DNA from: a virus
Lineage: Duplodnaviria; Caudoviricetes
DNA length: 64,000 nucleotides
IMG/VR virus record: IMGVR_UViG_3300033463_006479
Location: 128,464 to 192,463 of that record
Reading direction: 5' to 3' (one strand)
Within the stretch, counting starts at the first letter, position 1, and the number at the start of each line of letters is the position of its first letter. Of the stretch, positions 319 to 54,095 are shown piece after piece. The translations under genes were made by a program, and so were the position numbers. The notes beneath the pieces were generated by a model. The model had not been told where the DNA came from and did no database searches. It saw nothing but the letters and a program-made list of their open reading frames with translations.

Positions 319-348
319 ATATGTTATGTTTTTGTTTTCTGATATGTG

Positions 349-433
349 TGGCTTGGGCGGGACTCGAACCCGCACGCCCGCAATGGGCAACAGATTTTAA
401 GTCTGTCGTGTCTACCAATTCCACCACCAAGCC
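349..433 (-). tRNA. trnL: tRNA-Leu(TAA)
   Basis: Cloverleaf, loop CTTAAAA, long variable arm, GTTCGAG T-loop. Confidence 0.95.
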
Positions 434-444
434 AGACAATCAAG

Positions 445-528
445 TCGGCGAGGCGGGGGTCGAACCCGCACGCCCTTTCGGGCACTTGCTCCTAAAACAA
501 GCACGTCTGCCAATTCCGCCACTCACCG
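445..528 (-). tRNA. trnL: tRNA-Leu(TAG)
   Basis: Loop TTTAGGA, long variable arm, acceptor CGGTGAG/CTCGCCG. Confidence 0.9.
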
Positions 529-538
529 CAATATAATG

Positions 539-612
539 TCGATAAGGTGGGATTCGAACCCACAATAACACGAATCTGAATCGTGTGCGTCTGCCAGTTG
601 CGCCACTCATCG
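539..612 (-). tRNA. trnL: tRNA-Leu(CAG), short variable loop
   Basis: Loop TTCAGAT in CACGA/TCGTG stem; only about 4 nt of variable region. Confidence 0.8.
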
Positions 613-633
613 TTTGATATTCATATTCGTTTG

Positions 634-717
634 TGGTCGAGGCGGGATTTGAACCCGCATACCCTTTCGGGCAACAGTCCCTCAAACTGCCGTGTCTGCC
701 AATTCCACCACTCGACC
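634..717 (-). tRNA. trnL: tRNA-Leu(GAG)
   Basis: Loop TTGAGGG, long variable arm. Confidence 0.92.
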
Positions 718-885
718 ATTTTGTCAGTTCTTCCATCGGACGATTATACTGACAACCCAATCCACCGATTTTCGTACACTTTCCAAGTATGTCGGCAACT
801 TCCAGCCGCTCACACGGACTGGTTACGGTACGTGACCGTGAGAATGTGCGGATAATAACACACTTTCTTCCTTGCCAGGTCGGAG

Positions 886-957
886 AGCAGGTGATGGGAA
901 TCGAACCCACATTTCCAGCTTGGAAGGCTGAAGCACTAACCGTTGTGCTACACCTGC
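886..957 (-). tRNA. trnG: tRNA-Gly(TCC)
   Basis: Loop CTTCCAA, U73 discriminator. Confidence 0.95.
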
Positions 958-1175
958 ATAAAGAAAGATGGCTGGTTTGTCGTTATGCCAGCAAAGCACG
1001 CTTCCGCCATACTTCAAACGGGGTTTCACACCTCGTTACATCTTTTTAGCCACCGAGCGTTTGACCGATTTCGCCATCGCCATACCAATATAGTATGCAC
1101 GAGCAGGACTTGAACCTGCATTCATCGCAAACCACTGCGACCGTCCGAGTTGAACGGAACTGATTCGGTGTTCTG

Positions 1176-1247
1176 TAGCGGAGGACGGAATCGAACCGCC
1201 GACCTCAAGGTTATGAGCCTTACGAGCTACCTCTGCTCCACTCCGCA
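1176..1247 (-). tRNA. trnM: tRNA-Met(CAT), initiator-like
   Basis: Loop CTCATAA; GGAGCAG..GGTAGCTCG D arm and 1:72 mismatch typical of fMet. Confidence 0.9.
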
Positions 1248-1420
1248 CTATTAAAAACTGGCGGCGGCGTTGTGGCTTATACGTAAATCACCACACCTTT
1301 GATTTCAGATTTTAGGCCAGTTCGGATTTTCGTGTTTATATCAAAAACAAGAAATGCGAAACAGACTTCACATCATCCTATAACCATTAAGTCAAAAGAA
1401 CAACGTTTGACACCAGTTTG

Positions 1421-1496
1421 TTGAACCGATTGGATTCGAACCAACGCAGCACAAAGTTAATTGTGTCGTGCTACCGAAATGTTACACCACGGTTCA
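1421..1496 (-). tRNA. atypical tRNA, 6-nt anticodon loop (TTAACT), identity undetermined
   Basis: Acceptor TGAACCG/CGGTTCA, D and T arms present; anticodon loop non-canonical. Confidence 0.6.
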
Positions 1497-1524
1497 TCCG
1501 TTTGTATGGAAATGAAAAAAATTG

Positions 1525-1640
1525 ATTGGCAGGCAGGAGTCGAACCCACACATCGGTCTTGGACAAGATTAAATACTGCTGATAATTTCTTTGGCCAAGA
1601 AACATTTTCTTACCGTGCTCTACCTTTAAGCTACTGCCAA
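1525..1640 (-). ncRNA. tRNA scaffold with ~44-nt insertion in anticodon arm (hairpin + ATCAGCAG)
   Basis: Acceptor TTGGCAG/CTGCCAA, D arm, T arm; CGGT/ACCG stem encloses TTTCTTG-GCC-AAAGAAA-TTATCAGCAG. Confidence 0.75.
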
Positions 1641-1744
1641 ATGTCCGTTTTCGTTTTGTCCTCCTTGCAAATAATGAGCTCCTCATCCAAGGCTGGTTGT
1701 TGCACTATGTCGAAATACGGTAAAGAACACTACAACCTTTCACG

Positions 1745-1829
1745 TGGGGGAGGAGGGATTCGAACCCCCTGTGTTTCTATGTAACGGATTTACAGTCCGC
1801 CGCCCTTCCACCATCAGAGCAGCTCCCCC
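1745..1829 (-). tRNA. trnY: tRNA-Tyr(GTA)
   Basis: Loop CTGTAAA, long variable arm. Confidence 0.95.
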
Positions 1830-1840
1830 ATTTACGCCAA

Positions 1841-2344
1841 CTATTTGCTGGCGATTTCTTTTACTGCATTTGCGATAACACCATTGTTCGCATTAGGATA
1901 TTTAACCTTCACTCTTGCGATAATATCTTTGGTATATCGTTGCAGTTGTTTAGTGTCAAACGTTTCACCATTGTTGTTTTTTTCAGAAACAAGTATATCA
2001 ACTTGCTTTTCGGTTTCATTGCGAACTTCCTCAACGCTCGGCTCTTTCGGCAAGAGTTTTTCAAGTTCAGAAGCCTCAAATTCGTTCACCTTTCTGTTTT
2101 CAACGGCTATTTTGTTGTCATCACCAGCCTTGGCAAACTCCTGCGCAGCCGTGCGGCAACGTTTCAGCATAGAACGGAGAATTTCAGTTTCCTTTTCGTC
2201 ATTAGGAAGTTTTGTTCCGTTATGCACGGCGTTCACCATTTCGGTCTTGACACCTTTCCAGAAATTCGTTTTTAATTTCACGGCGCAGTCTTTTTCTTCA
2301 AACATAGCGTCCGCAATGTGTTTGTCAAGCGTTTCAAAAATCAT
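1841..2344 (-). CDS. GatB/YqeY domain protein
   Basis: 167 aa helical protein with YqeY-like pattern (IADAM...LRSMLKR..AAQEF...E...LEKLLPKEPS.EEV). Confidence 0.75.
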   Translation of the reverse strand: MIFETLDKHIADAMFEEKDCAVKLKTNFWKGVKTEMVNAVHNGTKLPNDEKETEILRSMLKRCRTAAQEFAKAGDDNKIAVENRKVNEFEASELEKLLPKEPSVEEVRNETEKQVDILVSEKNNNGETFDTKQLQRYTKDIIARVKVKYPNANNGVIANAVKEIASK

Positions 2345-2371
2345 AACTTTGTGTTTTTATTGTTGTTTTTG

Positions 2372-2444
<73 letters not shown>

Positions 2445-2606
2445 ATTCAGATAAAGGACATTTGAATATTTTAACCAATAAACTATACAGCCTTGTTAGA
2501 CCATAACACGGACTCGAACCGCTCGGTTGCTTTGTCGTGCACAACTCCGCAACCAATTTCTTCCAAACCACACGATATTTGCAACTATCACGTGTTGTCT
2601 TTATCT

Positions 2607-2683
2607 TGGTGGACACTGGTGGGACTTGAACCCACGACATCCTGCTTGCAAGGCAGGCGTTCTTCCAACTGAACTACAGGCCC
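2607..2683 (-). tRNA. trnA: tRNA-Ala(TGC), CCA encoded
   Basis: Loop CTTGCAA, G3:U70. Confidence 0.92.
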
Positions 2684-2689
2684 AAAAGT

Positions 2690-2975
2690 GCAGCATACCG
2701 AAGTTTTTGCAATGTGCATCGGCCTCTATCGCTGCTGCGGCGAAAAAGCCTCTTTAGTTATTCGGTGAGGCTTGATTTCCGTTCACGCTCGTTTTGCTGC
2801 GGAAGTTTACTCGCATCGTGGAATTGTCACCACGCTCTCCCGCTTTGTGGCGGGAATGTCACTTGACACTTATACGCCTCAACTTTCCAATGCCGTCCGT
2901 TTTCGAAAATTATAATTTCGGTTTCGGCATATCAGCACAAGTCAGCGATGCTTGAACACCAGTCTGCAAGCACTG
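2690..2975 (-). ncRNA. structured ncRNA with RNase P-like or group II intron-like motifs
   Basis: Multiple hairpins; GGAAAGTTGAGGC, GTGGTGACAATTCCAC, GAGTAAACTTCCGCAGCAA, GCAAAAACTTCGGTAT; no ORF. Confidence 0.4.
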
Positions 2976-2980
2976 TGTTG

Positions 2981-3052
2981 TTGTCCCGACCAGAATCGAA
3001 CTGATATTACTTGTGCCAAAAACAAGTGTAATAGCCATTATACCACAGGACA
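2981..3052 (-). tRNA. trnQ: tRNA-Gln(TTG)
   Basis: Loop TTTTGGC in CTTGT/ACAAG stem. Confidence 0.88.
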
Positions 3053-3183
3053 TTACAAGCAACCGTTTTTATCTCTCGGATAGGTTGCTCACCTGCACCG
3101 CTTCCTTTTTTATGTTTCCGTGGCACTGCGGTTTTGACACGGCGAAACGAGGTTTTACACAAAAATTGTTAAAGTCAAAGAAA

Positions 3184-3250
3184 ACAAGGTGCATATGGAA
3201 ATAACAAATTTAGGTGTTGTTTGGAATAATGTTGCTGTACGCACCTTTTG
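3184..3250 (-). ncRNA. stem-TACAGCAA small RNA, copy 1
   Basis: AAGGTGC-GTACAGCAA...GCACCTT-G. Confidence 0.75.
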
Positions 3251-3288
3251 AACTATAAATTAACTATGAATGAAAAATGCCATAAAAA

Positions 3289-3355
3289 ACAAGACACACA
3301 AAAAAGATTCAAAGTGACAGTTTGATTTTTTTATGAATTGCTGTATGTGTCTTTG
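3289..3355 (-). ncRNA. stem-TACAGCAA small RNA, copy 2, with Asp(GTC)-like anticodon stem-loop
   Basis: AAGACAC-ATACAGCAA...TCAAA-CTGTCAC-TTTGA...GTGTCTT-G. Confidence 0.8.
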
Positions 3356-3457
3356 CGTATCTGGCAGGAGTCGAACCTGCGCCCTTGAGGATATGCCTCA
3401 CGTTCTTACCGACATCTCCACGTTGGAATCCCACCAACGCTTCACCACTACAGATAC
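3356..3457 (-). ncRNA. tRNA-like RNA with expanded D region and aberrant anticodon loop
   Basis: Acceptor GTATCTG/CAGATAC, T arm GCAGG-TTCGACT-CCTGC; extra hairpin CGTTGG/CCAACG in D region. Confidence 0.65.
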
Positions 3458-3537
3458 TGACAGAGGATAGGTTTGTTAAAACTATATGTGATTTGCAACT
3501 CAACATAAAGCTGTAACAATTAACATCATTCTGTTTG

Positions 3538-3611
3538 CGGTGTGTACGGGACTTAAACCCGTGACCTCCGCCGTGACAGGGCGGCATTCTAATCAACTGA
3601 ACTAACACACC
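3538..3611 (-). tRNA. trnD: tRNA-Asp(GTC)
   Basis: Loop CTGTCAC, G73. Confidence 0.92.
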
Positions 3612-3617
3612 ATTTTG

Positions 3618-3742
3618 TCGGGGGTGGTGGATTCGAACCACCATAACGGCTACCCAAAAGCAAAATTGAAATAAAATTGCTGTCCAATTCTCATACAAGA
3701 ATCGTCAAAAAAATACGTGTCCTACCATTAGACGAACCCCCG
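3618..3742 (-). tRNA. trnP: tRNA-Pro(TGG) interrupted by a 54-nt insertion (3662-3715) in the 5' anticodon stem
   Basis: Removing 3662-3715 restores CGGCT-TTTGGGT-AGCCG in a 71-nt cloverleaf with C1:G72, A73; insert holds a hairpin + ACAGCAA. Confidence 0.75.
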
Positions 3743-3750
3743 TTAAAAAA

Positions 3751-3821
3751 ACAAGATACTAAAAATGTAGCGATTTCAAATTACGAGTTTGATGCTTTTG
3801 TTTTTGCTGTATGTATCTTTG
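3751..3821 (-). ncRNA. stem-TACAGCAA small RNA, copy 3, with Thr(CGT)-like anticodon stem-loop
   Basis: AAGATAC-ATACAGCAA...AGCA-TCAAA-CTCGTAA-TTTGA...GTATCTT-G. Confidence 0.8.
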
Positions 3822-3850
3822 GTTTTCATAATGATATATACTGACTGTTG

Positions 3851-4050
3851 CAGACGGCAAAGGAATCGAACCTTTGAATCTTCACCATATCAAGAGCCTA
3901 CTTTGTCGGTTAGTTGACTGACAACCGTGATGATAACTATAAACCGATTGTTTCGGAACTTATACCCGTTCATATTCCAGAACGGTGACGTGTCGCCACG
4001 CCCCACATCTTGATACGGAATTGACGCATTTCCGTTTATGCTATCCGTCT
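3851..4050 (-). ncRNA. tRNA scaffold carrying a ~130-nt structured insert in place of the anticodon arm
   Basis: Acceptor AGACGG/CCGTCT, D stem GCAT/ATGC, T arm AAAGG-TTCGATT-CCTTT; TATCAAGA/TCTTGATA helix encloses the insert. Confidence 0.7.
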
Positions 4051-4184
4051 ATTAAAAAGTGCAGGAAACCATTGTTTGCTGGGATTGGTCTGACTATGAG
4101 TAAAGTAATGATGGAAATGACCAGTCGCCACAAATGTTTGTGTTTATTACTGATGTCTAAAACTGCACTTATATTTTAATGATG

Positions 4185-4595
4185 TTATTTCTTTTTCCAA
4201 TGTGATTTAATCCCTCCGCATTTTCTACTGCAACAAGGATTTGGGTGCGTTGATAAATTACGTTTATCAAAAATGAATTTCTCACCACAAACTGGACAAA
4301 CACATTCAATAAAAGTTTTTGATTGTTTCTTTTTTGAATTATTTTGTCTTTTTGATATAACTTGTAAGTTCTCTATCCTATCATCCATTCTATCACCATT
4401 TATGTGGTCAACTTCATCATCATTTGCCACATCACAACTATAATATGAAGTATAAAGATATTTTGCATAAGACATTGAATGTTTTTCGCCATTTGCATAT
4501 TTCATAGTTGCAACTCTTCTGGGTTCTTTGTTTATATTTACATAAACACTGGTTACACCTTTATTTTTATAGTATTCACTAACATCAATTTTCAT
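4185..4595 (-). CDS. HNH homing endonuclease with C-terminal Zn finger
   Basis: VDHINGDRMDDRIENLQ HNH_3 motif; CPVCG...CCSRKC. Confidence 0.9.
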   Translation of the reverse strand: MKIDVSEYYKNKGVTSVYVNINKEPRRVATMKYANGEKHSMSYAKYLYTSYYSCDVANDDEVDHINGDRMDDRIENLQVISKRQNNSKKKQSKTFIECVCPVCGEKFIFDKRNLSTHPNPCCSRKCGGIKSHWKKK

Positions 4596-4614
4596 AACAA
4601 GTTTAATTTGCTTG

Positions 4615-4688
4615 TAGCGATGGCGGGACTTGAACCCGCAACCTCCTGCTTATAAGGCAGGTCCTCTAACCATTAAGGATACACCGCT
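4615..4688 (-). tRNA. trnI: tRNA-Ile(TAT)
   Basis: Loop CTTATAA in CCTGC/GCAGG stem, A73. Confidence 0.88.
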
Positions 4689-4733
4689 ATCTTGTCGTTC
4701 TATAAATTATGTATAAACGAACAATCAAGGAAA

Positions 4734-4810
4734 ACAAGACACTTTGAAATAGCGTATTCATATTAAAAGTATGGTGCTTGTTCATTTAAGGATTGCTGTA
4801 AGTGTCTTTG
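4734..4810 (-). ncRNA. stem-TACAGCAA small RNA, copy 4, with Lys(TTT)-like anticodon stem-loop
   Basis: AAGACAC-TTACAGCAA...AGCAC-CATA-CTTTTAA-TATG...GTGTCTT-G. Confidence 0.8.
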
Positions 4811-4883
4811 TCCACCCGCAGGGATTCGAACCCCAATCTTGAGTTCCGTAGACTCACGTTCTAATCCGTTGAACTACGGGTGG
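4811..4883 (-). tRNA. trnR: tRNA-Arg(ACG)
   Basis: Loop CTACGGA. Confidence 0.93.
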
Positions 4884-4888
4884 TTTTG

Positions 4889-4963
4889 CGGGGGAGGTGA
4901 GACTCGAACTCACAACCATCGGCTTAACAGGCCGCCGCTCTGACCGATTGAAGCTACTCCCCC
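4889..4963 (-). tRNA. trnN: tRNA-Asn(GTT)
   Basis: Loop CTGTTAA, G73. Confidence 0.93.
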
Positions 4964-4969
4964 GTTTTG

Positions 4970-5041
4970 TAGTCCCAGCGGGAATCGAACCTGCATTTAG
5001 AGTTTAGGAAACTCTCGTTCTGTCCGTTGAACTATAGGACT
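4970..5041 (-). tRNA. trnR: tRNA-Arg(CCT)
   Basis: Loop TTCCTAA. Confidence 0.92.
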
Positions 5042-5046
5042 GGATT

Positions 5047-5129
5047 ACAAGGTGCTGGGTAACGAATAACAAAAATGAAACAGAATTTTAATTGTAAATG
5101 CTATGATATTTTTGCTGTATGCACCTTTG
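5047..5129 (-). ncRNA. stem-TACAGCAA small RNA, copy 5
   Basis: AAGGTGC-ATACAGCAA...GCACCTT-G. Confidence 0.75.
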
Positions 5130-5203
5130 TGGATACTGGTGGGACTTGAACCCACGACATCCTGCTTGCAGGGCAGGCGTTCTCCCAACTGAACTACAGA
5201 CCC
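5130..5203 (-). tRNA. trnA: tRNA-Ala(TGC), second near-identical copy with C33
   Basis: Near duplicate of 2607-2683; loop CCTGCAA. Confidence 0.85.
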
Positions 5204-5410
5204 AGAAATACAAGGTTTATGTTCTGACCAGCGTCTTCACCGCCAAGCCAATTTCATCTGTTTACGTCCTCGCAAACCTTGCAAAACAAAGGAGTGTGGC
5301 GCAGTTCACCATCAGCCACATTTAGGGCTTTTTTCTTATGGATAGAATTAAAGCGTAAAAACCTTTCCATATACCGAGCAGAAGTGAAGATTCTGGCGGG
5401 TAATGAAATG

Positions 5411-5483
5411 TCGTCCCAACGGGATTCGAACCCGTGACTCCACCGTGAAAGGGTGGCGACTTAAACCACTTGTCGATAGGACG
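5411..5483 (-). tRNA. trnE: tRNA-Glu(TTC)
   Basis: Loop CTTTCAC. Confidence 0.93.
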
Positions 5484-8817: not shown

Positions 8818-10044
8818 TTAAATTCTTTTAGGTTGTTTTGATTTTTTTCTTGCGATTGGAGTTTTGCTGAATGCGTTTGCTGTATTGCAAATAACAGAAA
8901 TATCCCAGCCAGACAAATCACAATCAAATTGTGAACATCCGAAAAACATATCCTCTATTGTTTCAACACTGCTGACATCCCACAATGATATGTCACCATT
9001 GAAATCCGAATAGGCGAACATAGCATTCATATCCTTTACATTTCCGACATTCCAATTTGATATGTCGCCATTGAAAGATGAGCCATAGAACATTTTTGTC
9101 ATTTTTTCAACATTTCCAACATCCCATTTTGATATGTCATTATTAAATCTTGAAAGGTTGAACATCTGCTCCATATTTTCAACTCTGGAGACATTCCATT
9201 TGGAAATATCGCCATTGAACGTTGTCCTGCTGAACATATACGACATATACTTGACTTTTGACACATTCCACGCCGTAAGATTCTGGTTGAAATCAAGATT
9301 GTTATGAAACATTGATGTCATATTCTCAACATTGCCGACATTCCATTTGGAAATGTCTCCATTGAAATATCCGCTTTTTGAATTGCCGTTCTCGCAACAG
9401 AACATACTTGACATATTTTCCACCTTGCCGACATTCCATTTTGATATGTCCCCGTGAAATTTAGTGAATGCGAACATAAAACTCATATTCTCCACATTGC
9501 TTACATTCCATTTTGATATGTCCCCGTCAAATTCACATTCACAGAACATAGCACTCATATCCACAGCACTGGAAACATTCCATTTTGAAATATCGCCATT
9601 GAATATTGAATCGGCAAACGCCCTATTGAAATTGGTTACATTTGATACATCCCATTCTGATATGTTTCCGTTGAATTTTGAACTGTCAAAAATATACTGC
9701 ATATTCGTAACATTGGAAACATTCCATTTGGATATGTCGCCATTGAATTTCGTATTGTAGAAAAGCCAGCCCATATCCGTAACATTGGAAACATTCCATT
9801 TGGATATGTCAATGTTTTCAATATCCATTCCCCAAAACAATGCGTTCATATCAGTTATTTTTGAAACATCAATGTCATTCAAATCATAATTTGAACAGTC
9901 TATGTGTTCCTTTATGGCCGCAATAAGTTCATCTTTTGTTTTTGGATGATATTTGTATGGACGCAGTTCAGTAAGCCTTGCTTTTGAAACTGGCCTTATG
10001 TTTAATTTTTCTGAAATGTATTCCTCGGAATCAAGTATGTGCAT
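8818..10044 (-). CDS. BspA/DUF285 repeat protein with capsid-targeting-like leader
   Basis: Many F(N)GDISKWNVSNVxNM..MF repeats. Confidence 0.92.
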   Translation of the reverse strand: MHILDSEEYISEKLNIRPVSKARLTELRPYKYHPKTKDELIAAIKEHIDCSNYDLNDIDVSKITDMNALFWGMDIENIDISKWNVSNVTDMGWLFYNTKFNGDISKWNVSNVTNMQYIFDSSKFNGNISEWDVSNVTNFNRAFADSIFNGDISKWNVSSAVDMSAMFCECEFDGDISKWNVSNVENMSFMFAFTKFHGDISKWNVGKVENMSSMFCCENGNSKSGYFNGDISKWNVGNVENMTSMFHNNLDFNQNLTAWNVSKVKYMSYMFSRTTFNGDISKWNVSRVENMEQMFNLSRFNNDISKWDVGNVEKMTKMFYGSSFNGDISNWNVGNVKDMNAMFAYSDFNGDISLWDVSSVETIEDMFFGCSQFDCDLSGWDISVICNTANAFSKTPIARKKSKQPKRI

Positions 10045-13834: not shown

Positions 13835-16726
13835 TTAGTCTATCATAGAATTTCCTATACTGTCAAACAAAGTGTCCAAATCAACATTCGGATGGCTTTG
13901 TTCATAATCACCGATTATGCGTGCATATTCATTGAAGTTCGGGTCAGTATTGTCAAGAAGGTTGCAGTATTTACAAATTCTTGCAATAAGGTCTGGAACT
14001 GGTGATGAAGATTGTGTATCAAAATTGTCGTTCAAGAAATGGATTATGGTTTCCAAATCTTTTGGCGGTATTTTATCAGAAGCATCAAACATTGATTGTA
14101 TTTCACGTTTCAAGTGGTTTGTAACCGCAACCGCATTCACATTGGTATCAACTTTAAGATTTGGATTGTTTACAATACGGTCGTATGTGTATCTGAATGA
14201 ATCAGAGCCGCCATTTTCAATGTATTCCTCAACATATTCTTGAGCAATGTCATCTGGAAGGAAACCAGCCACATAAGTCAAGAATGTATCATAACCGAGG
14301 TCGGCATAGGATTTAACGCCTTCAATCTTGCACACCTTATTCAATTCCGAGATAGCCCTCGACCATTGTCTTGGTGAAATGCTTCTTGTTTCCATATCGT
14401 CTTCCGTTGCATCGGGGTCAATGTTATGCCATCTTGAATTTGGCGTGTCTTCACCTCTCGCACCAATGAACTCAATCGTAAAATCATCAAATCCGCCTTT
14501 GTCTTTAGCCCATTTAGACCAATCCTTGAATGTAGGAACAAAGTTATATGATTTCAACCTCTGTTTAAGTGCTGGCGGAGCATCACTCCAACTTCTTTTG
14601 ACACGAACATCGTCTGTCGGACGGTTTGAACAAGCCATACAATACCACTTGCTTCCAAGTCTGTATCCGCCAGTTGTTTGGCGTGTCATCATAATTTGTG
14701 CGATACCGAACAATGTGTCTGGGTCGGCACGCAAAAACTCGTCAAACATAAGGATACCTCCGCCGCCGTGCGTTTCGGTATCTTCCATATATCCTTCTTT
14801 GTCATATATAACGCTGACGTGTCCGTTAGCAACAGCGTTTCTTGCTTTGTCAAGTTCTTTATCTCCAGTAGGCAGCCACATAGGAAGCCAACTTTTAGGA
14901 ACGTCTGATGAATGCGCTGTGATAAATTTCTCACAGTCTTTGTCTGTCATATTATGTGCCGCCATATATTCCTTGACAAACGGGATATTCTTTACTCGTT
15001 CAATATCGTCTTGTGTTATCTTGACTGGCATAGGCATAAACAAGTCGCCAGCCTGCAATATTGAACAATCAACAACTATAATTGAGAATTTGTCGTTATT
15101 GCTTCCGCCACTTTCCGCAACGACATCGTTGGCCGCATCAACAATATCTTTCGGTATGGTAGTCTTACCAATACCAGGCGCACCCCATATCACCATAGGT
15201 TCAAATATGATTGGCTTGTCACCTTTCATACCTTTCAATATGGTGTTCAGCATACTTTTGAGCGTTTCGCTTTTTATGTCTTTAGCACCGATGTTCTTAT
15301 ATGTCTGTCCTCCGATTTTCTCAACACTTTTCAGACCGACACGGCGTTCATTGACTTCAAGGGATTCGCTTATTGCGCTGCTTGACAATTTGGAAGTGTA
15401 TTCCATAAACTTGAAGTAATTGTCAAACTCTTGGCTGTTCTCTGGTATTTCGTCATAATACCCAGACTTCTGCGGATAATTGACTGGTTTCCCACATTCA
15501 GCATAAACACCAGCAACACGATATTTCTTCAAGAAATCAACAATGTTCTGCGGGAGATTAGCACCGAACATATCAAGTGTTTTCCCCACAACAAACGTGA
15601 ATCCGTCTTTGAGTTTTACACCGACCGTTTCAAAAGCGTCCTTTATTTTGCTGAAAGACCTTTGGGCAAAATCTCTGATAACGCCTTCATTCATACCATA
15701 TTGTTCGTTGATGAACTCCATAGTATCCAACACATATTTCTTTTCATTAGTTGTATCCATAATGGCCTGCATTCTGTATTTTTTAATATCACTTGTTTTT
15801 CGCTTAATGTCATCTGCACTGCCAATCCAAGCACCCATACGTTTTTTGACGGATTCCGTATCATCGGCGGAAGTCCTTCCGATAACTGGGAGATAACCGA
15901 GTTCTTGGTTTATAGTCAAAGCCCATCTTCTCAAAACATCCTTCTTGTCAAAGTCAGAACCGATAAACATATTCTTTATATTCTGTGCCTTTTTAAGTTC
16001 CCAGTCCTTTATGGAATCGTTGTTGAATGTGGATTTGTAGAACATACCTTCAAAGCAAGTTCCGTTTGAAACATTCCAGTTGCTCAAATCAACATTCGGC
16101 AAATCCTTGAATGCGAACACAGCCGTAAAATCACGGACATCTGTCACATTGAAGAACGAATATGGAAGTTCAACATCCTGCGTTGTAACAGCATCACCCC
16201 AAGGGCTGTCTTTCGGGTTTGTGATAAGATGATAAACCAAATCCGATGCGAAGTTTATATCGTGCAAGTTCTGGTCAACATAAGCATCGCCCTTTACATT
16301 GGTAAGGGTTATCTCTTGATGGCTCATCCAGTCGTTGAGTTCGTCCTTCAGTTTTTTCTCCTTTGCCTTTATTTCCTCTTGCTTGTTTCTTTTTCTGACT
16401 TGTTCGGCTTCCAAATCGCTCATTGACCTTATTTTGCTATAATCGGTATCATCGTCTGGTATGCTATCTTCGTCAGTTTCTTCTTTTGATTTAACTCTGT
16501 CAAATAAGCCCTCATTGACAACACGGCCTTCAGTAAGAAAAGATGCGGTCTTTGTCTTTTCAAGAAGTTCATTGACGGATTCATTGATTGCCGCCTCGTT
16601 CTCCTTATAAAACTGTTCATAGAGTTTTCGTTTTTCGGAAATTGAAAGGCTCTTATCCACGTTTTTCCAGAAGTTCTCATAAGCGAACTTCGACATTATT
16701 CCTATATTGTAATTGAATGCTCCCAT
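13835..16726 (-). CDS. MoxR-type AAA+ ATPase with N-terminal DUF285 repeats
   Basis: IWGAPGIGKT, LMFDEFLRA, ACSNRP, PALKQR, SPRQW; LSNWNVSN repeats. Confidence 0.85.
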   Translation of the reverse strand: MGAFNYNIGIMSKFAYENFWKNVDKSLSISEKRKLYEQFYKENEAAINESVNELLEKTKTASFLTEGRVVNEGLFDRVKSKEETDEDSIPDDDTDYSKIRSMSDLEAEQVRKRNKQEEIKAKEKKLKDELNDWMSHQEITLTNVKGDAYVDQNLHDINFASDLVYHLITNPKDSPWGDAVTTQDVELPYSFFNVTDVRDFTAVFAFKDLPNVDLSNWNVSNGTCFEGMFYKSTFNNDSIKDWELKKAQNIKNMFIGSDFDKKDVLRRWALTINQELGYLPVIGRTSADDTESVKKRMGAWIGSADDIKRKTSDIKKYRMQAIMDTTNEKKYVLDTMEFINEQYGMNEGVIRDFAQRSFSKIKDAFETVGVKLKDGFTFVVGKTLDMFGANLPQNIVDFLKKYRVAGVYAECGKPVNYPQKSGYYDEIPENSQEFDNYFKFMEYTSKLSSSAISESLEVNERRVGLKSVEKIGGQTYKNIGAKDIKSETLKSMLNTILKGMKGDKPIIFEPMVIWGAPGIGKTTIPKDIVDAANDVVAESGGSNNDKFSIIVVDCSILQAGDLFMPMPVKITQDDIERVKNIPFVKEYMAAHNMTDKDCEKFITAHSSDVPKSWLPMWLPTGDKELDKARNAVANGHVSVIYDKEGYMEDTETHGGGGILMFDEFLRADPDTLFGIAQIMMTRQTTGGYRLGSKWYCMACSNRPTDDVRVKRSWSDAPPALKQRLKSYNFVPTFKDWSKWAKDKGGFDDFTIEFIGARGEDTPNSRWHNIDPDATEDDMETRSISPRQWSRAISELNKVCKIEGVKSYADLGYDTFLTYVAGFLPDDIAQEYVEEYIENGGSDSFRYTYDRIVNNPNLKVDTNVNAVAVTNHLKREIQSMFDASDKIPPKDLETIIHFLNDNFDTQSSSPVPDLIARICKYCNLLDNTDPNFNEYARIIGDYEQSHPNVDLDTLFDSIGNSMID

Positions 16727-25857: not shown

Positions 25858-27182
25858 CGAAATTATCCCTTTTATTCTTGTATTATTTATAAGACTTCAA
25901 GTTCAATAGTCGCTTCGTTGCTGTCCGATTGTTCACCAGTTTTATTGGGTCTTGCAAACGGTTGGTACACAGCTCCACGACCGTACTCGGCATTCCTTGC
26001 CGAGATATGTCTCTGCCATTCGTCTGGTTCATATTGTTCGTTGTTCTTCGCCGCATTGATGTCTCTGTCGTGATGAGCACCACAGTTCGGACAAGTCCAA
26101 TATCTTACTGCCAGATTTTTGACTTTCTTGTTTATATAACCGCACTCGCTGCACATCTGGCTTGACGGATAATATCTGTCAACTTTCATCATAGTCTTGC
26201 CGTTCCAAGCACATTTGTATTCAAGTGTCTGAACGAACTGATACCAGTTGCATTCGGATATGGATTCAGCAAGTTTGTGATTTTTCATCATACCTTTTAC
26301 ATTCAAATCCTCAACTTTTATCAAGTCATAAGTTTTGACCAGTTCTGCGGTTATCTTATGTATGTAGTCAGTTTTGATGTCTGTGATTTTCTGGTAGATT
26401 CGGTTGCATTTCAATACTTGGTTTTCATATCTCTTGCTTCCATAGACCTTCCTTGCCAGACATCTCTGATATTTTTTCAGTTTTCTTTTGTAATATCTGA
26501 TTATGCTTCGTTTGCTTGCATATTTGAATCCCTTGCTTGTGATTATAAGTTCCTTTATTCCGAGGTCAAGACCTACACGTTCATAAGTTTTGTTTCTTGG
26601 TGTGTAGTCCTGCTTGACCGTTATCGCTATGTAGTATCTGCCAGCCTTGTTTTTTGATATTGTGGCAAAGCAGATTTTACCTACAATTCCACGCTCCATA
26701 ACTATGTCTATTCCGCTTTTGAGCTTCGGAATGTATAGTTTGTTATCCTTGATATGAAATGTGTTAGGCTGTGCAATCTTGAACGACTGCTTGTCTCTTC
26801 TGTTCTTGAACTTCGGATAGGAGCTTCTGTGCTTGTAGAAATTGTCATACGCAGTATGCATATTCTTCAAACTGCATTGCAAAGACTGCAAAGGAACAAT
26901 GTTCAAGAACTCAAATCCTTCAAACTTGCGGATTTCTGTTAATTTACCAGACTGCACATTGTATGAATCACTTGTCTTTGCTTCATCATACTGTTTTTTT
27001 TTCTCGTTTAGAAAATGGTTGTACACAAACCTGCAACATCCGAACACATTGGCAAGATAAACTTGCTGCTCCTTGTTCGGATACAACCTAAACTTGTACG
27101 TGTACATTCTCTCCATCTGATTAAAACACTATACCATATTTATATTACTCACATTTTTACAAGACTGAAATGGATAATTCCA
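25858..27182 (-). mobile_element. tnpB-only IS607/IS1341-like element with imperfect 26-bp inverted ends
   Basis: Ends at 25858-25883 and 27157-27182, each 3 mismatches from the 21988 repeat; no tnpA inside. Confidence 0.82.
25887..27116 (-). CDS. tnpB: TnpB RNA-guided endonuclease
   Basis: YKFRLYPNKEQ HTH, GLDLG (D), VEDL (E), CSECG/CPNCG Zn ribbon, DRDINAAKN (D). Confidence 0.96.
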   Translation of the reverse strand: MERMYTYKFRLYPNKEQQVYLANVFGCCRFVYNHFLNEKKKQYDEAKTSDSYNVQSGKLTEIRKFEGFEFLNIVPLQSLQCSLKNMHTAYDNFYKHRSSYPKFKNRRDKQSFKIAQPNTFHIKDNKLYIPKLKSGIDIVMERGIVGKICFATISKNKAGRYYIAITVKQDYTPRNKTYERVGLDLGIKELIITSKGFKYASKRSIIRYYKRKLKKYQRCLARKVYGSKRYENQVLKCNRIYQKITDIKTDYIHKITAELVKTYDLIKVEDLNVKGMMKNHKLAESISECNWYQFVQTLEYKCAWNGKTMMKVDRYYPSSQMCSECGYINKKVKNLAVRYWTCPNCGAHHDRDINAAKNNEQYEPDEWQRHISARNAEYGRGAVYQPFARPNKTGEQSDSNEATIELEVL

Positions 27183-53804: not shown

Positions 53805-54095
53805 GGAATTATCCCTTTTAATTTTGTTAAACTTCAAGTTCAATAGTCGCTTCATTGCTGTCCGTTTGTTCACCAGTTTTCTTGGGTTTTGCAAACGGTT
53901 GGTTTACAGCTCCACGACCGTACTCGGCATTCCTTGCCGAGATATATCTTTGCCATTCATCTGGTTCATATTGCTCGTTGTTCTTCGCCGCATTGATGTC
54001 TCTGTCGTGATGAGCACCGCAGTTCGGGCAAGTCCAATATCTTACACCCAGATTTTTGACTTTCTTGTTTATGTAACCACATTCGGAACACATTT
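53804..54095 (-). pseudogene. tnpB: tnpB 3' remnant retaining the omegaRNA and right end
   Basis: Near-identical to 25895-26160; 26-bp end at 53804-53829. Confidence 0.9.

What the first reader, a model, noticed from the sequence alone, without database searches (positions are those of the whole stretch)
3184..5129. Repeated 'stem-TACAGCAA' small RNAs displaying isolated anticodon loops: possible tRNA decoys
Seen: five copies (3184, 3289, 3751, 4734, 5047) of a covarying 7-bp stem (AAGGTGC/AAGACAC/AAGATAC) followed by NTACAGCAA and closed by the complement + G. A weaker variant lies at about 3474-3525. Three copies enclose 7-nt anticodon-type loops on 4-5-bp stems: CU-GUC-AC (Asp), CU-CGU-AA (Thr) and CU-UUU-AA (Lys). 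Two of these are preceded by AGCA, as after a D stem. The variant has a UU-GCA-AA (Cys-like) loop. Three copies start directly 3' of a tRNA or tRNA-like gene, so 3' processing would release them. Known: anticodon nucleases (PrrC on tRNA-Lys, PARIS AriB, colicin-type RNases) act in defence, and bacterial Y RNAs are tRNA mimics with a Ro60-binding stem. Inference: a modular protein-binding handle plus a variable anticodon bait, acting as anti-defence decoys or Y-RNA-like tethers.
Basis: partly seen in the sequence, partly recalled or inferred. Interest (0 to 1): 0.86.

Follow-up and report, generated by a model that had tools for sequence, protein, structure and literature searches.

The report
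Phage Y-RNA-like tRNA-mimic small RNAs
Five small structured RNA genes sit among this rumen phage's tRNA genes; they belong to a large uncatalogued viral family that shares one "handle", often displays a copy of a tRNA anticodon loop, and in other phages nearly always co-occurs with a Ro60-like RNA-binding protein, a gene not found in the part of this genome that is held.

Summary
Five elements lie on the minus strand at window 3186-3247, 3291-3353, 3753-3819, 4736-4808 and 5049-5127. A sixth lies outside the window at genome 118,537-118,606. All share a 7-bp covarying closing stem, then N-UACAGCAA, variable cargo, and an invariant G after the stem. The "weaker variant" near 3474-3525 is a different hairpin.

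No Rfam family matches. My covariance model finds 99 members in 44 viral loci, always on the tRNA strand inside tRNA arrays. Anticodon-type loops are enriched: 31 of 76 against 8 in shuffles. Lys-UUU dominates. In this window the Asp and Lys loops are identical to those of the phage's own tRNAs.

A DUF2828 protein is encoded in 38 of 42 element-bearing records and in 0 of 26 controls. Its predicted fold matches Ro60 over its full length. In relatives it sits beside an RNA ligase.

Here, no Ro60, TROVE or DUF2828 gene is present in the 192-kb record, which is estimated 70% complete. The gene is also missing from its syntenic site beside the portal gene.

Best reading: Y-RNA-like partner RNAs with tRNA-anticodon baits, probably used in conflicts over tRNA cleavage. 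The handle matches Dictyostelium Class I RNAs. This scan found the same family earlier on other genomes.

The parts
3186..3247 (-). Copy 1. The closing stem is AAGGUGC/GCACCUU, followed by G-UACAGCAA (core at 3232-3239). The cargo is 39 nt and has no canonical anticodon loop.
   Evidence: covariance model 49.1 bits.
3291..3353 (-). Copy 2. The stem is AAGACAC/GUGUCUU, with the core at 3338-3345. The cargo hairpin at 3309-3325 is UCAAA-CUGUCAC-UUUGA, an Asp GUC loop. The copy directly follows the tRNA-like gene at 3358-3470.
   Evidence: 58.2 bits. The loop is identical to that of the phage tRNA-Asp.
3753..3819 (-). Copy 3. The stem is AAGAUAC/GUAUCUU, with the core at 3804-3811. The cargo hairpin at 3776-3792 is UCAAA-CUCGUAA-UUUGA, a Thr CGU loop.
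   Evidence: 57.3 bits. It is covered without mismatch by a 179-nt contig from an RNA library.
4736..4808 (-). Copy 4. The stem is AAGACAC/GUGUCUU, with the core at 4793-4800. The cargo hairpin at 4759-4773 is CAUA-CUUUUAA-UAUG, a Lys UUU loop. The copy starts 1 nt after tRNA-Arg(ACG).
   Evidence: 61.7 bits. The loop is identical to that of the phage tRNA-Lys. Contigs from RNA libraries of three studies span it together with the neighbouring tRNAs.
5049..5127 (-). Copy 5. The stem is AAGGUGC/GCACCUU, with the core at 5112-5119. The cargo is 56 nt and has no canonical anticodon loop. The copy lies 3 nt after tRNA-Ala and 7 nt before tRNA-Arg(CCU).
   Evidence: 46.3 bits.
3470..3535 (-). It is a separate long hairpin and not a family member.
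   Evidence: Fold at -13.8 kcal/mol with TACAGC inside the stem. No model hit at E<=10.
348..5483 (-). The part of the phage tRNA array that lies in the window. It holds 17 tRNAs, plus unannotated tRNA-like genes, and hosts the elements.

Best explanation
These are genes for small non-coding RNAs of about 60-80 nt. They are transcribed with the tRNA array and probably released by the tRNA-processing cuts on either side.

Each RNA has a constant handle. Its two ends pair in a 7-bp helix with an A opposite an invariant G at the base. Next to the 5' strand lies an unpaired N-[U/A/C]ACAGCAA.

The handle most likely binds a phage Ro60-like ring protein (DUF2828/DUF7788 with a vWA domain), much as Y RNAs bind Ro60. 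The variable part presents a piece of tRNA. In this window that piece is an isolated anticodon stem-loop of Asp, Thr or Lys. In relatives it can be a whole or circularly permuted tRNA-like body.

I infer that this bait brings an anticodon-loop-recognising factor, such as a host anticodon nuclease or an RNA-repair enzyme, to the Ro60-like particle, or titrates it away. That would protect or repair tRNAs during infection.

Shown: the family, the handle, the tRNA-array context, the anticodon mimicry, the co-occurrence with the protein, and the protein's predicted Ro60-like fold.

Inferred: binding, processing and the anti-nuclease role.

The partner gene is not in the held part of this genome.
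For: - Handle conservation: ACAGCAA and the G after the stem are 96-100% conserved in 51 members that were not selected by the search pattern.
- Stem covariation: every position of the closing stem shows changes on both sides, with covariation 0.61 against 0.20 in shuffles. Because those rows had been picked for a paired stem, the unbiased check is that 47 of 110 free-stem pattern hits pair, against about 2% expected.
- Context: members are always on the tRNA strand, typically 1-5 nt after one tRNA and 6-11 nt before the next.
- Anticodon-type loops: 31 of 76 against 8.0 +/- 2.6 in shuffles; the strict CU-NNN-A form gives 15 against 1.2.
- Lys UUU accounts for 9 of 42 loops, but for only 18 of 433 tRNA genes in the same loci. 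G36 is followed by G37 in 5 of 5 cases and U36 by A37 in 20 of 20, as in real tRNAs.
- The window's Asp and Lys loops equal those of the phage's own tRNAs.
- DUF2828 is present in 38 of 42 element-bearing records, including 12 of 12 that are at least 90% complete, and in 0 of 26 element-free records.
- Fold: the DUF2828 model has pLDDT 76. Its top 13 PDB hits are all Ro60/TROVE, aligned over the full length, with E from 6e-10 to 1e-4.
- In relatives the DUF2828 gene sits beside an RNA ligase, and in one of them also beside phosphoesterases.
- This genome keeps RlaP and a polynucleotide-kinase-like gene.
- Long family members have the order T arm, capped acceptor stem, D arm. YrlA has the same order (PMC4201824).
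Against: - No TROVE, DUF2828 or RtcB gene is in the 192-kb record.
- In relative L135 the DUF2828-ligase module lies beside the portal gene. Here that site holds a sigma-like gene, a GmrSD-like gene and an EcoRI-type methylase. The partner may therefore have been lost rather than merely left unassembled.
- In this clade the RNAs and the protein gene are far apart: 197 kb in G020, and no model hit within 10 kb of the gene in L135/L136.
- Only 42 of 99 members carry an anticodon-type loop. Copies 1 and 5 here do not.
- Co-occurrence could reflect shared phage lineages rather than function.
- No binding, expression-end or phenotype data exist. RNA-library contigs could come from contaminating DNA.
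Confidence: 0.6

Rival explanations
1. The elements are processing punctuation. The handle would be a structured spacer recognised by an RNase, or would insulate neighbouring pre-tRNAs so that the array matures correctly. The RNA itself would have no function of its own.
For: The elements fit tightly between tRNAs, with 1-11 nt gaps on the same strand. Contigs from RNA libraries join copy 4 to the neighbouring tRNAs.
Against: Several loci hold clusters of elements with no tRNA called nearby, for example L016 and L101, and some of these lie beside DUF2828. Punctuation would not explain the enrichment of anticodon loops that obey the tRNA position-37 rules. It would also not explain the 38/42 against 0/26 link to a Ro60-like gene.
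Confidence: 0.12
2. The elements are decayed tRNA genes: relics that kept an acceptor-like stem and sometimes an anticodon arm.
For: They have tRNA-like size and position. They have a 7-bp terminal stem followed by one further base. Some carry anticodon arms, and a few relatives contain T and D arms.
Against: An 8-nt motif foreign to tRNA is near-invariant across distant phages, and the stem is kept by compensatory change. Neither ARAGORN nor the Rfam tRNA model matches them. Neutral decay would not conserve these features.
Confidence: 0.05
3. The elements are working minimal ('armless') tRNAs that are charged and decode Asp, Thr and Lys codons.
For: They have canonical 7-nt anticodon loops on 4-5-bp stems. 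They have a 7-bp terminal helix. The spacing between that helix and the anticodon arm, about 20 nt, is like that of a D-arm region.
Against: They have no T arm and no D arm. The base after the stem is G in every member, whatever the anticodon. In long relatives the acceptor stem is capped by a loop. The phage already encodes normal tRNA-Asp and tRNA-Lys. More than half of the members have no anticodon loop.
Confidence: 0.03
4. The elements act at the DNA level, for example as hairpin recombination or transposition sites, or as MITE-like repeats.
For: They have inverted-repeat ends. Mobile genes (an HNH endonuclease and TnpB) lie in the array.
Against: The stem sequences differ between copies within one genome. 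The motif is asymmetric and strand-specific relative to the tRNAs in every locus. There are no target duplications or identical copies.
Confidence: 0.03

Closest known systems
Bacterial and phage Y RNAs with Ro60 (YrlA/YrlB, Rfam RF02553; Thermus phage phiLo Yrl1/2)
   Same: In both, the 5' and 3' ends pair into a stem that carries a conserved protein-binding motif, and a variable module imitates tRNA. Long relatives of this family have the order T arm, capped acceptor stem, D arm, as YrlA does (PMC4201824). The partner is a ring-plus-vWA protein, and the DUF2828 model matches Ro60 structures, including phage phiLo Ro60. Both have RNA-repair genes as neighbours.
   Different: The motif is N-[U/A/C]ACAGCAA rather than GNCGAAN0-1G (the phiLo paper calls it the CGAA motif). 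The partner is DUF2828/DUF7788 rather than Pfam TROVE. Most members imitate only the anticodon arm, the one part YrlA lacks. The genes sit inside tRNA arrays and can lie far from the protein gene. RF02553 gives no hit on the elements.
Dictyostelium Class I RNAs (Rfam RF01414)
   Same: Both are about 60 nt long. Both have a short covarying stem that joins the two ends, and the same motif next to the 5' strand. The published search pattern is GTTGRCCTTACAGCAA...GTCAACTG (PMC5054030). The rest of the RNA is variable (PMC7919456). In the whole 192-kb genome the first and third best RF01414 hits are copies 4 and 2, aligned over the full model.
   Different: The scores of 16.7 and 15.4 bits are far below the 41.5-bit cut-off. 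Class I RNAs have a 6-bp GUUG-type stem with an invariant 5' G, a eukaryotic DUSE promoter, and a known binder that is an RRM protein (Rnp1A). They were reported as unique to dictyostelids.
T4 stable RNAs C and D in the tRNA cluster
   Same: They are small stable non-tRNA RNAs encoded within a phage tRNA gene cluster and co-processed with the tRNAs (from my own knowledge, not tested here).
   Different: No shared motif is known, and no sequence comparison was made.

Membership tests
Viral 'UACAGCAA-handle' RNA family (uncatalogued; model R1 built here) | A 7-bp closing stem formed by the 5' and 3' ends, maintained by compensatory changes | tested here: met
   All five copies have it; family covariation is shown.
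Viral 'UACAGCAA-handle' RNA family (uncatalogued; model R1 built here) | An unpaired N-[U/A/C]ACAGCAA directly after the 5' strand, and an invariant G after the 3' strand | tested here: met
   Model scores are 46-62 bits, with E from 4e-11 to 6e-8.
Viral 'UACAGCAA-handle' RNA family (uncatalogued; model R1 built here) | Lies on the tRNA strand within a viral tRNA array | tested here: met
Viral 'UACAGCAA-handle' RNA family (uncatalogued; model R1 built here) | The genome also encodes a Ro60-like DUF2828 protein | tested here: not met
   There is no hit in the held 192 kb, and the gene is absent from its syntenic site. The record is estimated only 70% complete, so absence from the phage is not shown.
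Y RNA / YrlA (RF02553) | A Ro60-binding module with the GNCGAAN0-1G motif | tested here: not met
   The sequence shows a different motif, and RF02553 gives no hit on the elements at E<=10.
Y RNA / YrlA (RF02553) | A tRNA-like domain with T arm, capped acceptor stem and D arm | tested here: not met
   The window copies carry at most an anticodon arm. Some relatives, for example L030, L098 and L106, do have the domain.
Y RNA / YrlA (RF02553) | Encoded next to a TROVE Ro60 gene and bound by it | tested here: not met
   PF05731 is absent from the record. Binding cannot be tested with these tools.
Dictyostelium Class I RNA (RF01414) | A short terminal stem plus the 11-nt motif ending in UUACAGCAA beside its 5' strand | tested here: inconclusive
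   The stem and 8 of the 11 motif letters are shared. The GUUG stem and the 5' G are not.
Dictyostelium Class I RNA (RF01414) | Reaches the Rfam gathering score | tested here: not met
   The best score is 16.7 bits against a cut-off of 41.5.
tRNA (RF00005) | A cloverleaf with D and T arms | tested here: not met
   Neither ARAGORN nor Rfam places a tRNA on the elements.

The most novel reading that the evidence does not exclude
The phage handle RNAs and the Dictyostelium Class I RNAs are one ancient class of ribonucleoprotein RNA, built on the same stem-plus-UACAGCAA protein-binding handle. In phages the exchangeable cargo forms a programmable set of tRNA anticodon-loop baits, with Lys-UUU the commonest. 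Carried on a Ro60-like particle, these baits neutralise host anticodon nucleases or direct repair of the tRNAs those nucleases cut.
Probability: 0.2. Interest if true: 0.92.

Novelty: new variant of a known kind. Interest (0 to 1): 0.8.

Why it matters
If this reading is right, large phages carry a second, undescribed kind of Ro60/Y-RNA particle. Its RNAs display individual tRNA anticodon loops.

That would link three open problems: what Ro60-Y RNA particles do in microbes, how phages cope with anticodon nucleases, and what the abundant Class I RNAs of social amoebae are for.

It also means that many 'spacers' in phage tRNA arrays are genes. Annotation pipelines and Rfam currently miss them.

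Tried and rejected
- Rfam at gathering score and at E<=10 gave nothing on the elements.
- Blastn of the region against 50,697 phage records matched only the tRNAs.
- A literature search for the motif alone returned only unrelated siRNA sequences. 'Permuted tRNA' together with 'bacteriophage' gave no phage example.
- I considered a self-cleaving ribozyme (HDV-like/theta, hammerhead, twister, hatchet). I rejected it because the first and last nucleotides pair with each other and no ribozyme model scored on the elements.
- I considered a Bacteroidetes-type promoter on the opposite strand. The spacing does not fit, and a promoter would not explain the covariation.
- I tried to find the partner gene of this very phage.
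  - Contigs carrying the window's last gene were found, but no DNA was served for them.
  - The closest DUF2828 protein found (84% identical to that of G020) lies on contigs of a related phage, not on this one.
  - The 511-aa ORF beside the portal gene, a candidate by position, is GmrSD-like.
- The 346-aa ORF next to the kinase is a primase, not a ligase.
- A profile of the DUF2828 proteins reached TROVE structures by sequence only at E=0.8.
- The protein atlas returned only viral DUF2828 clusters and no amoebal ones.
- Contigs from RNA libraries of three studies cover copies 3 and 4 and part of copy 5. They cannot show transcription, RNA ends or strand. Parts of the region without cover say nothing.
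Full report
**Context.** The window is the last 64 kb of a 192,463-bp viral contig with 38% GC. CheckV estimates it to be 70% complete. Near-identical DNA occurs mostly in bovine gut metagenomes. The genome has a T4-type terminase and portal. It carries a 16-kb array of 30 ARAGORN tRNAs, all on the minus strand at genome 117.9-134 kb, and 17 of them lie in the window at 348-5483.

**Observation.** Read on the minus strand, the five elements share one plan: (A)AAG-NNNN, one free base, UACAGCAA, 39-56 variable bases, NNNN-CUU, then G.
- Exact spans are 3186-3247, 3291-3353, 3753-3819, 4736-4808 and 5049-5127.
- The stems differ between copies but always pair: GGUGC, GACAC and GAUAC.
- A sixth copy, with stem GAGAAGC, lies at genome 118,537-118,606.
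- TACAGCAA is about five-fold over-represented in the window.
- Copies 2, 3 and 4 contain hairpins with the 7-nt loops CUGUCAC, CUCGUAA and CUUUUAA. The first and third are identical to the anticodon loops of the phage's own tRNA-Asp and tRNA-Lys.
- Copy 5 begins 3 nt after tRNA-Ala and ends 7 nt before tRNA-Arg(CCU). Copy 4 begins 1 nt after tRNA-Arg(ACG). Copy 2 abuts a tRNA-like gene.
The family model does not recognise it.

**A large viral family.** Rfam has no match, either at gathering score or at E<=10. I scanned IMG/VR with a pattern that fixes only AAAG, TACAGCAA and CTTGT.
- Of 110 distinct matches, 47 have all four free stem positions paired, where about 2% is expected.
- A covariance model built from 54 such sequences finds exactly the six copies in this genome. 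It finds 99 members in 44 loci.
- In the 51 members that do not fit my original pattern, ACAGCAA is 96-100% conserved and the G after the stem is 100% conserved. The preceding base is U, A or C.
- Every member lies on the same strand as the tRNAs of its locus, usually within a few bases of them.
- In the prokaryotic genome collection only 9 of the first 120 pattern hits are stem-closed. The convincing ones lie mostly in metagenome-assembled genomes. The family is therefore mainly viral.

**The cargo imitates tRNA.**
- Hairpins with a Y-U-NNN-R-N loop on at least 4 bp occur in 31 of 76 short members, against 8.0 +/- 2.6 in dinucleotide shuffles (maximum 17 in 500 shuffles). The strict CU-NNN-A form occurs in 15, against 1.2.
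- Among 42 such loops in the model-defined set, Lys-UUU accounts for 9, while tRNA-Lys(UUU) is only 18 of 433 tRNA genes in the same loci.
- Position 37 follows the tRNA rule: G after G36 in 5 of 5 cases and A after U36 in 20 of 20.
- Longer relatives (111-128 nt) enclose whole tRNA-like bodies. Some are in normal order, with the acceptor stem capped or extended.
- Others are circularly permuted: T arm, acceptor 3' strand, small loop, acceptor 5' strand, D arm. This is the order described for YrlA (PMC4201824).

**The partner protein.** After I had formed the 'Y-RNA-like or processing module' reading, earlier notes of this scan pointed to DUF2828. I tested that lead myself.
- PF11443 is present in 38 of 42 element-bearing viral records and in 12 of 12 that are at least 90% complete. 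It is present in 0 of 26 element-free records drawn from the same pattern scan.
- In many records the gene lies within 0-10 kb of the elements; in some it is far away.
- I modelled the protein of G020, a 413-kb relative. Proteins encoded in its tRNA-array region with a match here are mostly 58-84% identical to this phage's. The model has pLDDT 76.
- Its 13 best PDB matches are all Ro60/TROVE proteins, aligned over about 510-610 columns. They include Thermus phage phiLo, Xenopus, human and Deinococcus Ro60. Hits to the vWA domain alone come only after them.
- In G020 the gene is flanked by a 2H-type and a calcineurin-type phosphoesterase and by an RNA ligase. In relative L135 it is followed by an RNA ligase and lies near RlaP and a kinase.
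- Such gene sets are read as RNA-repair systems in jumbo phages (PMC7824862).

**This genome.**
- The held record has no TROVE, RtcB or DUF2828 gene, by Pfam or by tblastn with 12 family members.
- In L135 the order is portal, a 217-aa gene, DUF2828, RNA ligase, and its portal protein is 94% identical to ours. Beside our portal gene lie instead a sigma-like gene, a GmrSD-like gene and an EcoRI-type methylase.
- RlaP and a polynucleotide-kinase-like gene are present at 4.7-6.7 kb.
- Whether the partner sits in the missing roughly 30%, has been lost, or is supplied by the host stays open. A host source is conceivable because a TROVE hit does occur in Bacteroides thetaiotaomicron, one of the control genomes.

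**Expression.** Contigs from metatranscriptome libraries of three studies match copy 3, copy 4 and part of copy 5. One covers 3650-3828 with no mismatch. Two cover about 4730-4958 and join copy 4 to two tRNAs. Contigs cannot exclude DNA carry-over, so this is only a weak hint of co-transcription.

**Comparison with known families.**
- The architecture and the partner fold are those of Ro60-Y RNA particles, but the handle motif, the protein family and the anticodon-arm cargo differ.
- The handle is strikingly like that of Dictyostelium Class I RNAs. Those have a 6-bp end-joining stem, then CCUUACAGCAA, then a variable rest (PMC5054030; PMC7919456).
- The first and third best RF01414 hits in this genome are copies 4 and 2, but at 16.7 and 15.4 bits against a 41.5-bit cut-off.
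- I therefore do not file the elements under either family.

**Mechanism.**
- Most likely (0.6): handle-bound Ro60-like particles that display tRNA anticodon loops.
The RNA-ligase, phosphoesterase and RlaP neighbours fit too.
- That step is inference.
- Rivals are processing punctuation (0.12), tRNA relics (0.05), working armless tRNAs (0.03) and DNA-level repeats (0.03).

**Earlier reports.** The same family has been reported earlier in this scan on other genomes. The results above are my own tests.

Noticed in passing
window 3618-3742 (-): This is a tRNA-like gene with intact acceptor, D and T arms (Rfam tRNA 39 bits). ARAGORN reads a 50-nt 'intron' in it. The insertion holds a miniature handle-like hairpin: AGAAUU, then G-GACAGCAA, 9 nt, AAUUUU, then G. 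It may be a tRNA body tagged with the family's handle. Model R1 does not score it.
   Followed up: partly
window 3358-3470 (-): This is an unannotated 113-nt tRNA-like gene. It has a 7-bp acceptor stem, a canonical T arm and a long extra arm. Its anticodon loop is aberrant: UGGGAUU on a 6-bp stem. It directly precedes copy 2. RNA-library contigs cover it.
   Followed up: partly
window 1430-1500, 1530-1640, 2500-2560, 3850-3960 (-): Further sequences here have T-arm motifs (GGTTCGA...). ARAGORN does not call them as tRNAs. Some look like tRNAs with large insertions or with odd anticodon loops.
   Followed up: no
window 4171-4725: An HNH endonuclease ORF (4185-4595, PF13392) and tRNA-Ile(UAU) lie here. 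In one run's contig this 555-nt stretch is replaced by 78 other letters. It is therefore probably a mobile insertion in the array.
   Followed up: partly
genome 121,971-123,632 (L114:11971-13632, -), outside the window: A 553-aa TnpB/Cas12f-like ORF (PF07282, PF01385) is inserted in the middle of the tRNA array.
   Followed up: no
window about 25,880-25,925 and 53,815-53,862 (-), plus three more copies in the genome: A roughly 45-nt sequence, TGGTGAACAAnCGGACAGCAAyGAAGCGACTATTGAACTTGAAGT, is repeated five times. Each copy is followed by a stop codon and a conserved AAAAGGGATAATTCC. It looks like a shared gene end plus an intergenic signal.
   Followed up: no
genome 14-60 kb, outside the window: There are dozens of copies of a paralogous gene segment, 65-80% identical at the DNA level. 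This is a large multi-copy family, and its L135 counterpart is a 215-aa ORF.
   Followed up: no
genome 4,750-6,722 (L138): An RlaP nucleotidyltransferase and an AAA_33/KTI12-type kinase, both RNA-repair-associated genes, lie next to a T4-like primase.
   Followed up: partly
window 8818-10044 and 13835-16726 (-): Two large DUF285 repeat proteins are encoded just upstream of the tRNA array.
   Followed up: no
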